Shown here: piece by piece, positions 1 through 3,000 of the stretch
Position numbering within the stretch: the stretch's first letter is position 1
Layout of the letters: each line of letters opens with the position of its first letter
Made by a program: the position numbers
Assembly (NCBI RefSeq): GCF_000026545.1
Contig: NC_011601.1
Origin: Escherichia coli O127:H6 str. E2348/69
GTDB taxonomy: Bacteria; Pseudomonadota; Gammaproteobacteria; Enterobacterales; Enterobacteriaceae
DNA length: 64,000 nt
Direction: 5' to 3' (one strand)

Positions 1-3000
1 GTGATGTTGCTTGGAATTGCAGGGCATATAACTGATGGTTCTATAATACTAATTGATGAACCGGAAATAAGCTTGCATCCTCGATGGCAGGAAGAGTTTA
101 TCATTATGTTAACAAAAGCATTTTTAACTTACTCAGGTTGTCAATTCATAATTGCAACTCATTCACCACAAATAATATCCAATTTGCCGAATAAAGGTTG
201 TTATATAACATCTTTGTCGAAAAGTTATCTTTATAAAGCAAAATACTTTAGCAACCGGTCTGCAGACTATCAACTTGCGGAACTATTTGATGCCCCTGGC
301 ATTATGAATGAATACATTGCCAGATTAGCTTTCAATTTACTTTCAAAAGTTAAGACTGCTAAGTTAGTAACAGATGATAATTGGCGTGAATTAAAACAAC
401 TCCAGCTTCTCCTTGAAAACGTTAATAGTAATGACCCTATTAATGAACTCGTAAATTCCGTATCTCAGGTGTGTGAAATTTATGCCAAAAATTAAAAATC
501 CAATTAGATTCAGCGCAGAGTCATTAGATATTATTGAGAAAAAATTGTCTTCTCCAGATTTTAAGCATACCAACTGGGGAGATGATGATTTGCAAGTTCT
601 CCGTGCAGAAATTAGAAATCATTACAGAGAAGAACAAAAGCTAGAATGTGTATATTGTCATGAGCCTATTGGGGTAAGAGCTGCACAAGCTGCTCCTATA
701 GAGCATATTGTGCCAAAATCTCAATATCTATGTTTTATTTTTGAACCTAAGAATCTATGTGTAGTATGTCCTGACTGCAATGAATTCAAAGGTAAAAATG
801 AAGTGTTATTTGAACCCGTAATAAATGGGGGGCGGCGCAAAAACTATCCAACTGCATCTGCATCATTTCGCATCGTTCATCCACATATAGATGATTATGA
901 GATGCATATTATAAAAGCAAATCGTGTTTATGTGGACAAAACACCTAAAGGGCACTATACCATTGGAATATGTAAACTAAATAGATTTTTTCATTATTTT
1001 GGGATGTGTGATGAATTTGTTAATGATGCAAAAATTGCTGAGGCAAATGAAAATTTTTTCAAAAAAGGTAGTATTACTACTAATGAATTATTGGATGATG
1101 ACATTCATTTGATTTAACTATGAATTATTATATTGTAAAGTAATCAGGTAAGATATGTTAGACAGTGAGACTATTGCCTTACAGAATTCATTATTCTTAT
1201 GGATCGCCTTTCTGACTGATTTCATATTGGCGGGGTAACGGGAGTTAAGTAGAATGGCTGCGGGTGCTTGAGGCTATCTGTCTCAGGCATGAACACCAAA
1301 GGCAGATAGAGAAAAGCCCCAGTTAACATTACGCGTCCTGCAAGACGCTTAACATTAATCTGAGGCCAATTTCATGCTAGACACATGTAGGTTAGCCTCT
1401 TACGTGCCGGAAGGCAAGGAGATGTATGGGTCCACCACATATTGCAATTTTTATTCTCTTTTAAAATATATTCCACGGGCGTCATTAGTGCGAGCGCCTT
1501 GTGGGGTCTTTTGCTGTTATACAGCACCAGATATTCCGCCAGCTTCTGGTTAAATAGCGCCAGATCTTCAAAGAGTAAAATCTCATTAAATTCAATAAAC
1601 TGCTCTCTTAACGTCCGGTTAAAACGTTCACAGATAGCGTTCATTTTTGGCGTGTAGGGATAGGTCCAGAGGTGTTTGATAGCGGCTTCCTGCAGCGTTT
1701 TGTCGAAGTTTCCCAGGAACTCTTTTCCGTTATCTGTGATTATCTGGCTGATACCGACCGGGAACAACCGGGCTGCGCGGCTGAAGAAGTGATTGACGAT
1801 ATCACTGTTGAGTGACGGCACAGCCAGCGCCAGCGCGTAATTGCTGCATTCGTCGATCATGGTGATGACATAGCGACGCAGTTCGCCCATTCTGAGCTCA
1901 ATGGCGTCCATCCCAATGAGCTCACCTGTCTTTACCGGGCGGTAGTGCTTTGGCCTGCGGGGTTTGGCAGACCGCTTTTTGACAAGCAGTGCCTTCCCCC
2001 GCGATCCCAGACGCACAGGTATCATCCGCATTTTATCATGTGCGGCAGCGATCATTCTGCCGATGGTGGAAACACTCGGACAGGCCAGATAGCGCTGTTC
2101 GCACCAGGGCTTCAGGCGAACAAAAATCTGCTCTTTACCGAGGTTCGGCAGCTCTGTCCTGAGGCGTCGAATCTCTTTCAGCACATCGGGATGCCAGTGT
2201 TTTTTTCGTCGCACCAGAGGTGCCTTACTGTGCGGGATTAGCCCCTCAGGTCCTTCCTTGTTCAGTAACTGACGCCACCAGTAAAGCGTGCGGCAGGACA
2301 CGCCAAAGGCTTCAGAAGCTGCAGAAATACCGTGTTTATCCCAGAAGTGCAGAGCCTTCATTCTCATTGTTGCTATATCAGCCATCACTGAAAGCCTCAA
2401 CGCATAATCGGCCGTTTGGTAGTACTTAGGATAGCCAACCATCAGATGCTGCATTTGCATAGTGCAATCTCCCCTTACTTATCCGGAGGCAATTGCAATA
2501 TCTCTGTGAACTTACACAGGAGAAGCAGGCTATGAAGCAGCAAAAGGCGATGTTAATCGCCCTGATCGTCATCTGTTTAACCGTCATAGTGACGACACTG
2601 GTAACGAGGAAAGACCTCTGCGAGGTACGAATCCGAACCGGCCAGACGGAGGCCGCTGTCTTCACAGCTTACGAACCTGAGGAGTAAGAGACCCGGCGAG
2701 GGAGAAATCCCTCGCCACCTCTGATGTGGCAGGCATCCTCAACGCACCCGCACTTAACCCGCTTCGGCGGGTTTTTGTTTTTATTTTCAACGCGTTTGAA
2801 GTTCTGGACGGCGCCGGAATAGAATCAAAAATACTTAAGTAGCGCGCAGGGATAAGAGGGATGGTCCCTTAAAGGGGAGAGCTAATTATCCGGAAGGATT
2901 CTGATGATGAACATCGAAGAACTGCGTAAAATTTTTTGTGAAGATGGCCTCTATGCTGTGTGCGTTGAAAATGGAAATCTTGTTAGTCATTACCGCATTA

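What the first reader, a model, noticed from the sequence alone, without database searches (positions are those of the whole stretch)
1372..2790. IS481-like transposase inserted immediately upstream of a hok-family toxin gene
The transposase ORF ends about 30-70 bp from the mok/hok reading frame, where the hok promoter, sok antisense RNA and mRNA folding elements normally lie. Chromosomal hok loci in K-12 are known to be inactivated by IS insertions in exactly this way, so this copy may be decoupled from its antitoxin RNA or silenced.
Basis: partly seen in the sequence, partly recalled or inferred. Interest (0 to 1): 0.45.

Follow-up and report, generated by a model that had tools for sequence, protein, structure and literature searches.

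The report
Insertion sequence splitting a hok/sok locus
A 1,095-bp mobile element sits in the ribosome-binding site of a prophage toxin gene (hokD), separating the toxin from its promoter and leader while leaving the antitoxin RNA gene whole; related sequences show that this exact spot is a repeatedly hit landing site for this element in many hok loci.

Summary
The window is E. coli E2348/69, in a Qin-like lambdoid prophage.

- **The element.** An IS481-family element (window 1423-2517) is inserted with a 6-bp duplication, AGGAGA. That hexamer is the hok Shine-Dalgarno.
- **What survives.** The regulatory region is not deleted. The predicted hok promoter, the tac element, the mok start and the predicted sok gene with its promoter lie intact on the far side of the IS (1227-1422).
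- **Proof of insertion.** An empty-site allele 99.8% identical to the rejoined flanks exists in thousands of E. coli genomes.
- **Predicted effect.** Hok is silenced. It has no promoter, and mok now stops inside the IS. Sok should still be made.
- **Closest precedent.** K-12 hokA::IS150.
- **New finding: a hot spot.** IS copies differing by 0-1 nt sit in three hokD haplotypes, each of which also exists empty. Two IS subtypes occupy the equivalent position in at least 7 hok subfamilies (22 of 64 distinct flanks).
- **A target rule.** In unrelated sites the IS left end lies 5 bp from a TTG-N17-TAnnnT promoter-like motif.
- **K-12 link.** The K-12 relE-hokD junction coincides with this insertion point.

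The parts
1227..1255 (+). Predicted hok promoter: -35 TTGGCG at 1227-1232, 17-nt spacer, -10 TAGAAT at 1250-1255.
   Evidence: Promoter scan, 9 of 12 matches. It lies 7 nt upstream of the position that aligns with +1 of the R1 hok mRNA.
1262..1422 (+). hok mRNA 5' leader: tac element GGGTGCTTGAGG (1262-1273), mok Shine-Dalgarno GAGG (1362-1365), mok ATG (1374-1376).
   Evidence: Full-length Rfam sok RF01794 match at 1262-1428, 112 bits, E 1.1e-25. Alignment to the R1 hok/sok sequence. R1 numbering checked against PMC9841398.
1374..1553 (+). Truncated mok' frame. The first 16 codons and the first base of codon 17 are native; the frame then runs into the IS and stops at 1551-1553 (59 aa).
   Evidence: ORF list and translation. 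In the rejoined allele mok is in frame with hok, 57 nt upstream, giving a 70-aa product.
1307..1382 (-). Predicted Sok antisense RNA gene, placed by homology; ends are approximate.
   Evidence: R1 Sok is the complement of R1 nt 62-125 (in vitro template primers in PMC1635323). This was mapped to the window through the alignment and the Rfam alignment.
1389..1417 (-). Predicted Sok promoter: -10 TAACCT (complement of 1389-1394), 17-nt spacer, -35 TTGCCT (complement of 1412-1417). The IS end is 5 bp beyond the -35 hexamer.
   Evidence: Same geometry as R1: -10 TATCCT at R1 132-137 and -35 TTGCGC at R1 155-160, both derived from the Sok 5' end at R1 125 (PMC1635323). Inferred, not measured.
1417..1422 (.). 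Left copy of the target-site duplication, AGGAGA.
   Evidence: Direct reading. The empty-site allele carries a single AGGAGA.
1423..2517 (-). IS481-family insertion sequence, 1,095 bp. Ends are TGTATGGGTCCACC... and ...GTGAACTTACAC, forming imperfect terminal inverted repeats.
   Evidence: Ends defined from copies in other contexts. Inverted-repeat alignment. Removing this stretch restores an allele found in thousands of genomes.
1372..2460 (-). Transposase ORF, 362 aa. It has no stop codon inside the IS: the last 16 codons and the stop come from the flank, overlapping the predicted sok promoter and the first bases of the predicted Sok transcript.
   Evidence: ORF list; Pfam rve, rve_3 and HTH; NCBIfam IS481; flank-encoded tail translated.
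2518..2523 (.). Right copy of the duplication, AGGAGA. This copy is the Shine-Dalgarno still attached to hok.
   Evidence: Direct reading. It aligns with R1 nt 160-165.
2532..2687 (+). hok (hokD-type) toxin ORF, 51 aa, intact.
   Evidence: Pfam HOK_GEF 6.8e-23. RefSeq annotation hokD. Two substitutions relative to K-12 HokD.
2737..2749 (+). fbi (fold-back inhibition) element CCTCAACGCACCC, complementary to tac at 1262-1273.
   Evidence: RNA duplex prediction between the 5' leader and the 3' UTR, -33.2 kcal/mol.
2756..2782 (+). hok terminator: stem-loop followed by a T run.
   Evidence: Terminator scan.

Best explanation
An IS481-family insertion sequence (1,095 bp, one transposase ORF) transposed into the hokD/sok type I toxin-antitoxin locus of a Qin-like lambdoid prophage of E. 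coli E2348/69. It duplicated the 6-bp hok Shine-Dalgarno AGGAGA.

Shown from sequence: the locus is cut in two.
- The left piece keeps the predicted hok promoter, the tac element, the mok ribosome site and start codon, and the predicted sok gene with its core promoter.
- The right piece keeps a Shine-Dalgarno copy, the intact hok ORF, the fbi element and the terminator.

Inferred consequence:
- hok has lost its promoter.
- Any read-through RNA would have to cross 1.1 kb of untranslated antisense IS.
- The mok frame now stops inside the IS, 965 nt upstream of the hok Shine-Dalgarno. The translational coupling that Hok synthesis needs is therefore abolished.
- The toxin should be silent while Sok is still made, which would make the insertion harmless to the cell.

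The position is not an accident. This IS group (two subtypes about 75% identical) places its left end 5 bp upstream of a -35-like TTG of promoter-like sequences that fire away from the element. In hok loci the Sok -35 abuts the hok Shine-Dalgarno, so that rule lands the IS exactly between leader and toxin. This makes hok/sok loci a repeatedly used and tolerated landing site.
For: Structure:
- IS ends and TSD were read from this copy and from copies in other contexts.
- The rejoined flanks match uninterrupted hokD loci at 99.8% over 500 of 500 nt. 3,849 genomes hold a place covering at least 80% of that query (locus L007).
- Rfam sok is full length on the left flank here (112 bits) and in the empty allele (117 bits).
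- tac/fbi complementarity is kept.

Silencing:
- mok' stops at 1551-1553.
- mok translation up to the hok Shine-Dalgarno is required for Hok synthesis in R1 (PMC9841398).
- No sigma-70-like promoter facing hok was found in the IS right end.
- The arrangement persists in 54 complete genomes with hok still annotated.

Hot spot:
- IS copies differing by 0-1 of 1,095 nt sit in hokD alleles whose flanks differ 13 and 18 nt from the junction.
- Those flank haplotypes exist as empty sites at 100% (300 of 300 nt) and 99.8%.
- 73 of 167 recovered loci and 22 of 64 distinct left flanks are hok leaders, from at least 7 subfamilies. Hok ORFs lie right after the IS.

Target rule, in 38 unrelated (non-hok, non-STnc100) flanks:
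- TTG occupies nt 6-8 from the IS end in 21, against 1.6% expected (P about 4e-28).
- A -10-like hexamer follows at 16-18 nt in 9 of 17 independent TTG sites, against 3.9% expected (P about 4e-9).
Against: - No expression data. Silencing of hok and continued Sok synthesis are inferred.
- The Sok promoter and Sok ends in this hokD-type locus are placed by homology to R1 only. The -10 (TAACCT) is weak, and the promoter scan did not call it.
- The IS replaces the DNA upstream of the Sok -35, which could change Sok output.
- MFE folds of hypothetical transcripts starting in the IS do not decide whether the hok Shine-Dalgarno would be open.
- The promoter-like target signal could be a plain sequence motif recognised by the transposase rather than promoters as such.
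- About a third of flanks lack TTG. Several of these lack matching duplications and look rearranged.
- The site survey used one exact 27-nt probe.
- The transposase scores just under the NCBIfam IS481 cut-off.
Confidence: 0.8

Rival explanations
1. One reading: the IS landed upstream of the locus and removed or replaced the hok promoter, sok and the folding elements. hok would then be left without its antitoxin and possibly deregulated.
For: The transposase ORF does lie 71 nt from the hok ATG, and nothing hok-like except the Shine-Dalgarno remains between the IS and hok.
Against: The whole leader and sok region is present and intact at 1227-1422. The insertion is a simple one with a 6-bp duplication and no loss of sequence.
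Confidence: 0.03
2. hok is not silent. It is transcribed by read-through from the hok promoter or from an outward-facing promoter in the IS right end, and translated from its retained Shine-Dalgarno. The IS would then have rewired the toxin out of Sok control.
For: A good Shine-Dalgarno (AGGAGA, 8 nt from the ATG) and an intact ORF are retained. An in-frame ORF extends 13 codons into the IS. No intrinsic terminator was predicted inside the IS on the plus strand. From my own knowledge, IS481-family elements are known elsewhere to drive neighbouring genes.
Against: No promoter-like site faces hok in the IS. Unrepressed R1 hok is lethal even in single copy (PMC9841398), yet this arrangement is stably carried by 54 complete genomes and by many metagenome contigs. 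Long untranslated antisense RNA is a typical Rho substrate (inference).
Confidence: 0.1
3. There was one ancient insertion in hokD that later spread among prophages by homologous recombination, so there is no hot spot.
For: The interrupted module is shared at 97-100% identity by 54 genomes with different outer flanks. That shows the module does move between prophage backgrounds.
Against: IS copies are identical or differ by 1 nt, while flanks differ within 13-18 nt of the junction. Each flank haplotype also exists empty at 99.8-100%. A different IS subtype sits at the same position in other hok subfamilies.
Confidence: 0.05
4. The recurrence reflects selection only. The IS inserts almost anywhere, but in hok loci only insertions that kill hok and spare sok survive.
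For: An insertion that destroyed sok would be lethal (PMC9841398). K-12 hok loci carry unrelated IS elements, IS150 and IS186, so selection for disruption is plausible.
Against: Selection would allow many positions across the roughly 300 bp from promoter to stop codon, yet the junction is identical to the base. The same 5-bp spacing to a TTG is seen at unrelated, non-hok sites.
Confidence: 0.1

Closest known systems
hokA::IS150 of E. coli K-12 (Pedersen and Gerdes 1999)
   Same: An IS sits in the leader just upstream of the hok ATG (32 bp there, 14 bp here) and separates the mok and sok side from the toxin ORF. It is regarded as an inactivated locus (PMC12214031, PMC7232551).
   Different: The IS family differs: IS150 belongs to IS3 and has two ORFs. 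In K-12, mokA and sokA are annotated as pseudogenes, with sokA reduced to 35 nt. Here the predicted sok gene and core promoter are whole. No positional recurrence is known to me for IS150.
hokC::IS186 (and, by the literature, hokE) of K-12
   Same: An IS lies close to, but not inside, the hok reading frame, and the locus is considered inactive (PMC12214031).
   Different: IS186A lies 20 bp downstream of the hokC stop, in the 3' UTR, leaving mokC and sokC annotated as intact. Here the cut is on the 5' side, at the Shine-Dalgarno. The hokE arrangement was not checked here.
hokD (relF) of the K-12 Qin prophage, the relBEF arrangement
   Same: It is the same hok gene type, in the same prophage neighbourhood next to rem. 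K-12 is 99.0% identical to the window from 'ACAGGAGA' onward. It has also lost its leader and sok: no Rfam sok match.
   Different: In K-12 the leader is replaced by relBE plus a 65-nt spacer, with no IS present. The breakpoint coincides with the IS insertion point seen here.
hok/sok (parB) of plasmid R1
   Same: The rejoined locus has the same architecture: tac, mok ribosome site and ATG, Sok promoter geometry, AGGAGA 8 nt before the hok ATG, and fbi.
   Different: R1 is contiguous and functional, and its mok is in the +1 frame relative to hok (58 nt upstream). In the hokD type, mok is in frame with hok (57 nt upstream). Here the two halves are 1.1 kb apart.
IS481 family (for example IS481 of Bordetella pertussis)
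   Same: A single DDE (rve) transposase ORF, about 1.1 kb in length, terminal inverted repeats and a 6-bp duplication.
   Different: From my own knowledge, IS481 itself targets NCTAGN. This element's sites follow CA|A....., with a TTG-N17-TAnnnT pattern on the other strand. RefSeq gives it no specific IS name. The transposase has no stop codon inside the element.

Membership tests
[quoted passage not shown] | Small hydrophobic Hok/Gef toxin ORF of about 50 aa | tested here: met
   Pfam HOK_GEF 6.8e-23. NCBIfam Hok family match at 7.3e-13 (48.2 bits, below the model's 73-bit cut-off). The ORF is intact.
[quoted passage not shown] | Structured hok leader containing the cis-antisense sok gene | tested here: met
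   Rfam RF01794 full length (model 1-157) at 1262-1428, 112 bits against a gathering score of 59. The element lies on the far side of the IS from hok.
[quoted passage not shown] | mok reading frame that starts in the leader, runs over the hok start and couples translation | tested here: not met
   mok starts at 1374, enters the IS at 1423 and stops at 1551-1553. In the rejoined allele it runs in frame into hok. The locus is a disrupted member.
[quoted passage not shown] | 5' tac and 3' fbi complementarity | tested here: met
   Predicted duplex between 1262-1289 and the 3' UTR around 2737-2749, -33.2 kcal/mol. The two elements are now more than 1.4 kb apart on any transcript.
[quoted passage not shown] | Sok RNA expressed and repressing hok; post-segregational killing | not testable with these tools
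   Needs Northern blot or RNA-seq and genetics.
IS481 family insertion sequence | Single transposase of the IS481 type (DDE/rve) | tested here: inconclusive
   NCBIfam NF033577 at 221.4 bits, just under the 224 cut-off, covering 2-283 of 284 model positions. IS3 is next at 98 bits. Pfam rve and rve_3 match. RefSeq names it IS481 family.
IS481 family insertion sequence | Terminal inverted repeats and a short target duplication | tested here: met
   Imperfect inverted repeats over about 27 nt. A 6-bp duplication is seen here and at other sites: ATCCGC, ATGCTC, ATACTC, AGTGCT, AGGAGG, ACGGCT, AGAGTG, AGTGGA.
IS481 family insertion sequence | Mobile: several copies in different contexts, plus empty sites | tested here: met
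   1,927 places in 1,419 E. coli genomes, up to 38 per genome. Empty sites at 99.8-100%.
IS-inactivated chromosomal hok loci (K-12 type) | An IS close to, but not inside, the hok ORF that separates it from a required cis element | tested here: met
   The IS lies 14 nt upstream of the ATG, between leader and ORF. The K-12 comparison cases were checked.
IS-inactivated chromosomal hok loci (K-12 type) | Loss of Hok expression or killing | not testable with these tools
   Inferred from loss of the promoter and of mok coupling (PMC9841398). Not measured.

The most novel reading that the evidence does not exclude
This IS481-family group is a promoter-directed element. It recognises sigma-70-type promoters (or RNA polymerase bound to them) and integrates exactly 5 bp upstream of the -35 hexamer, with its stop-less transposase gene reading toward the promoter. 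Sok promoters are its favourite landing pads, so it systematically disarms hok toxins in Enterobacteriaceae.

IS copies parked at this shared site would then act as portable homology for swapping leaders and toxins between hok loci. That would explain chimeras such as the K-12 relBE-hokD (relBEF) arrangement, whose junction lies at the very base where the IS inserts.
Probability: 0.35. Interest if true: 0.7.

Novelty: new variant of a known kind. Interest (0 to 1): 0.5.

Why it matters
As a single locus this is ordinary: one more hok gene knocked out by an IS, as in K-12. Three things make it more useful than that.

- **A clean natural dissection.** The toxin ORF is separated from the promoter, mok and sok without any loss of sequence, and isogenic-like empty alleles are available for comparison.
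- **Targeting, not only selection.** The precise, repeated use of the same base in many hok subfamilies suggests that hok/sok loci decay partly by targeted insertion rather than by random insertion followed by selection. This bears on the old question of why chromosomal hok loci are so often inactive.
- **A testable target rule.** The flank statistics point to an IS that reads promoter-like DNA (TTG-N17-TAnnnT at a fixed 5-bp offset). I found no description of this in the papers I could search, and it can be tested directly with a transposition assay. It also offers a concrete route to the K-12 relBEF rearrangement.

Tried and rejected
- **Palindrome as IS end.** I first took the palindrome ATTGCAAT (1441-1448 and 2492-2499; inverted repeat I11) for the IS ends or the duplication. 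Copies in other contexts showed the IS is larger, 1423-2517.
- **Rfam match end.** The last three bases of the Rfam sok match (ATG at 1426-1428) are IS sequence, not the hok start.
- **Genome-contig scan.** The scan with the IS left end gave a single locus, a contig labelled Lachnospiraceae. It was of no use for target statistics.
- **Intermediate for the K-12 hypothesis.** A search for a 'relBE spacer + window-type IS' intermediate in E. coli complete genomes found only the known plasmid carrying the other IS subtype. The proposed intermediate is not observed.
- **Outward promoter.** The promoter scan found nothing facing hok in the IS, and it also failed to call the Sok promoter. Absence in this scan is therefore weak evidence.
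- **RNA folds.** MFE folds of transcripts starting in the IS were not decisive about Shine-Dalgarno accessibility.
- **R1 Sok-promoter mutations.** The supplementary table with these mutations is not held. I used the Sok template primers in PMC1635323 instead.
- **hok-leader classifier.** My first regex for classifying flanks as hok leaders failed. Classification was then done by inspection plus translated Hok ORFs.
- **Literature.** Searches for IS481 with hok or hokD, and for an IS name in E2348/69 papers, found nothing relevant.
- **Ungapped flank counts.** The mismatch counts are inflated by indels and were not used. The argument rests on the 45-nt junction flanks and the exact empty-site matches.
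Full report
**Where the window comes from**

Window bases 1100-2900 are 100% identical to the chromosome of enteropathogenic E. coli E2348/69 (NZ_CP059840.2). The surrounding 26 kb is a lambdoid, Qin-like prophage. It carries integrase, dicB, ydfABC, replication genes, hokD, rem, a DUF968 gene, rusA, an antiterminator-like gene and the lysis genes.

**Check of the observation**

- The 362-aa ORF at 1372-2460 (minus strand) has HTH, rve and rve_3 domains.
- Its best family model is the NCBIfam IS481 transposase: 221.4 bits, just under the 224 cut-off, covering 2-283 of 284 model positions. IS3 is a distant second at 98 bits.
- The 51-aa ORF at 2532-2687 (plus strand) is a Hok/Gef toxin (Pfam 6.8e-23). 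It differs from K-12 HokD at two residues.
- The two genes are divergent. The transposase ATG is 71 nt from the hok ATG.

Rfam's sok family (RF01794) models the hok leader in the sense orientation. It matches over its full length at 1262-1428 with 112 bits against a gathering score of 59. That places the leader on the other side of the IS.

Copies of the IS in unrelated contexts fix its ends at 1423 (TGTATGGGTCC...) and 2517 (...GTGAACTTACAC). These contexts are the yegH-galF interval, ColV-type plasmids near iroB and iss, and an integrative conjugative element.

The six bases on either side are both AGGAGA (1417-1422 and 2518-2523). Deleting the IS and one AGGAGA gives a 500-nt sequence. That sequence occurs, uninterrupted, at 99.8% identity over all 500 nt. 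3,849 E. coli genomes hold a place covering at least 80% of it, for example strain FORC064 in the same PtuA-PtuB-hokD-rem context. This is proof of a simple transposition with a 6-bp target duplication and no loss of host sequence.

**Anatomy of the split locus**

I recalled the R1 hok/sok sequence, and it proved 100% identical to real plasmids. Its numbering agrees with published positions: G4, C5, T6; mok ATG at 116-118; hok ATG at 174-176 (PMC9841398).

The Sok in vitro template primers in PMC1635323 place Sok as the complement of R1 nt 62-125. The Sok -10 is then TATCCT (R1 132-137) and the -35 is TTGCGC (R1 155-160). The hok Shine-Dalgarno AGGAGA (R1 160-165) overlaps the -35 by one base.

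The window aligns element for element:

| Element | Window position |
|---|---|
| Predicted hok promoter TTGGCG-17-TAGAAT | 1227-1255 |
| hok mRNA +1 | about 1262 |
| tac | 1262-1273 |
| mok Shine-Dalgarno GAGG | 1362-1365 |
| mok ATG | 1374 |
| Sok +1 (minus strand) | about 1382 |
| Sok -10 TAACCT | 1389-1394 |
| Sok -35 TTGCCT | 1412-1417 |
| AGGAGA (left copy of duplication) | 1417-1422 |

The IS therefore sits 5 bp upstream of the Sok -35 hexamer and inside the hok ribosome-binding site. On the right are the second AGGAGA, the hok ORF, the fbi element (2737-2749) and the terminator. fbi is predicted to pair with tac at -33.2 kcal/mol.

In the rejoined allele, mok is in frame with hok, 57 nt upstream, giving a 70-aa product. 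In the window, mok reads into the IS and stops at 1551-1553.

The transposase ORF has no stop codon within the IS. Its last 16 codons and the stop are supplied by the flank, running across the predicted Sok promoter and into the predicted Sok transcript.

**Likely consequence (inferred)**

- hok has no promoter of its own any more.
- The simple scan finds no promoter facing hok in the IS right end.
- A read-through RNA from the hok promoter would carry about 1 kb of untranslated IS antisense.
- mok translation, which must reach the hok Shine-Dalgarno for Hok to be made (PMC9841398), ends 965 nt short of it.

The toxin should therefore be silent, while the core sok gene is untouched. An insertion with the opposite effect would be lethal, since R1 hok without the Sok promoter cannot be maintained even in single copy (PMC9841398).

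Nothing here measures RNA or protein, and MFE folds were not informative.

**Known precedents**

The literature states that K-12 hokA, hokC and hokE are inactivated by insertion elements and hokD by rearrangement (PMC12214031; PMC7232551, citing Pedersen and Gerdes 1999). The K-12 annotation gives the details:

- IS150 sits 32 bp upstream of the hokA ATG. mokA is annotated as a pseudogene on the hok side, and a 35-nt sokA pseudogene lies on the far side.
- IS186A lies 20 bp downstream of hokC.

The hokA case is the nearest parallel. The present case differs in IS family and in leaving the predicted sok gene whole.

**The insertion is recurrent and position-specific**

The interrupted arrangement occurs in 54 of 5,426 complete E. 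coli genomes. I scanned IMG/VR and metagenome contigs with the 27-nt IS left end.

The IS falls into two subtypes that differ at about 275 of 1,095 positions, roughly 75% identity.

Among type 1 copies at the hokD site, the window, L030 and L042 are identical and L016 differs by 1 nt. Their left flanks nevertheless differ 13 and 18 nt from the junction. Each flank haplotype also exists as an empty site:

- L030 and L016 at 300 of 300 nt;
- the window's at 499 of 500 nt.

A single old insertion would have produced tens of differences in the IS. At least three independent hits at the same base is the economical reading.

Beyond hokD, the IS, in one or the other subtype, occupies the equivalent position in other hok leaders:

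- R1-like leaders (L083, L059, L125);
- a group of 22 loci (L066);
- three MKLPR-type hok genes (L060, L084, L119, L101), with duplications AGGAGA or AGGAGG;
- a divergent hok (L095, duplication AGTGCT, directly followed by ATG);
- a hokA-like locus (L097, L134, and the right flank of L162, duplication ACACTG).

The ORFs immediately to the right match Hok models. In all, 73 of 167 loci and 22 of 64 distinct left flanks are hok leaders.

**A target rule**

Read on the strand leaving the IS left end, flanks show five variable bases and then TTG. In the 38 distinct flanks that are neither hok nor next to STnc100:

- TTG holds that position in 21, against a chance rate of 1.6% (binomial about 4e-28).
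- A second signal (G-n-T-A-A) appears after a 17-nt gap.
- Of 17 independent TTG sites, 9 have a -10-like hexamer (at least 4 of 6, with A2 and T6) at 16-18 nt, against 3.9% of control TTG anchors (about 4e-9).

Type 2 copies recur at TTGAAA-17-TAAATT, next to the 5' end of the Rfam STnc100 element in prophages. This is probably the phage late promoter, but I did not verify that.

The pattern looks like a sigma-70 promoter with the IS always 5 bp upstream of the -35 and always in one orientation. The data cannot say whether the transposase reads the DNA motif or a polymerase-bound promoter. Roughly a third of flanks do not fit, and several of those lack matching duplications and look rearranged.

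**The K-12 hokD junction**

K-12 has relB-relE, a 65-nt spacer, then AGGAGA-hokD.

- Its left part is 99.1% identical to the left flank of a plasmid module relBE-IS(type 2)-hok(R1-like), up to and including AGGAGA.
- Its right part is 99.0% identical to the window from ACAGGAGA onward.
- The two alignments overlap only in those 8 bases.

The plasmid module occurs in 127 plasmids, and its empty form in 453. So relBE plus spacer is joined to two unrelated hok genes at exactly the base where this IS inserts.

Several metagenome contigs show an IS with one hok flank and one foreign flank (L106, L112, L125, L162, L056, L158). This shows that IS copies at this site do mediate flank exchange.

That fits IS-mediated exchange followed by precise loss. 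Recombination at the shared AGGAGAAG microhomology is an alternative, and the predicted intermediate with the window-type IS was not found.

**Verdict**

The hot spot and the promoter-like target rule, together with the link to K-12 hokD, lift the interest to moderate.

I found no paper in the held library that links IS481-family elements with hok. This is not proof that it is undescribed, since ISfinder could not be consulted.

Noticed in passing
window 1-1117 (full PtuA in L001 10023-11396): Directly upstream of the hok locus lies a Septu anti-phage system: PtuA (AAA ATPase, PADLOC 1.9e-165) and PtuB (HNH, 1.1e-83). The empty-site strain FORC064 has the same PtuA-PtuB-hokD-rem order.
   Followed up: partly
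L006 (K-12 1645119-1645633) versus window 2516-2900 and L002 851-1506: The K-12 relE-hokD junction lies exactly at the IS insertion point. K-12 equals the plasmid relBE flank (99.1%) plus the window hokD flank (99.0%), and the two overlap only in ACAGGAGA.
   Followed up: partly
L002 (plasmid NZ_CP129243.1) 917-2774: The module relB-relE-IS481 (type 2, annotated as a pseudogene)-hok (R1-like) has the same AGGAGA duplication. It is present in 127 plasmids, mostly Enterobacter and Klebsiella. The IS-free form is in 453 plasmids.
   Followed up: partly
L013, L014, L021, L022, L029, L033, L049 (IMG/VR prophage contigs): Type 2 IS copies recur at two homologous prophage sites (duplications ATGCTC and ATACTC). 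They lie 5 bp from TTGAAA-17-TAAATT, at the 5' edge of the Rfam STnc100 element. This is probably the phage late promoter region.
   Followed up: partly
window 1372-1422; also L005 1492-1500: The transposase ORF has no stop codon inside the IS, so its C-terminal tail and stop come from whatever flank it lands in. Here that is 16 codons running across the predicted Sok promoter.
   Followed up: partly
L056, L158, L106, L112, L125, L152, L162, L026, L041: Some IS copies have non-matching flanks: one side is a hok leader or hok gene and the other side is foreign, or the relE spacer is cut 15 nt earlier. These are signs of IS-mediated deletion or of recombination between copies.
   Followed up: no
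L003 (yegH-galF interval) and L004 (ColV-type plasmid between iroB and iss): Copies of the IS about 93% identical are fixed at these two places in many E. coli chromosomes and plasmids. They are annotated as pseudogenes, and their flanking hexamers do not match perfectly or at all.
   Followed up: no
L008 (SFGN01000096.1): The only hit in the species-representative genome collection is a contig of a MAG labelled Lachnospiraceae. It carries an E. coli-type hokD leader abutting the IS, so it is probably a mis-binned enterobacterial contig.
   Followed up: no
window 1374-1422 + 2524-2687 (rejoined): In the hokD-type locus, mok is in frame with hok (57 nt upstream), so 'Mok' would be an N-terminally extended Hok of 70 aa. 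K-12 mokC and hokC are annotated the same way. In R1, mok is in another frame (58 nt upstream).
   Followed up: partly
window 2696-2777 and 5592-5665: There are weak, sub-threshold Rfam isrK matches (25.7 and 21.6 bits against a gathering score of 50), at the hok 3' UTR and terminator and at a second terminator-like element. They are probably just shared stem-loop plus terminator shape.
   Followed up: no
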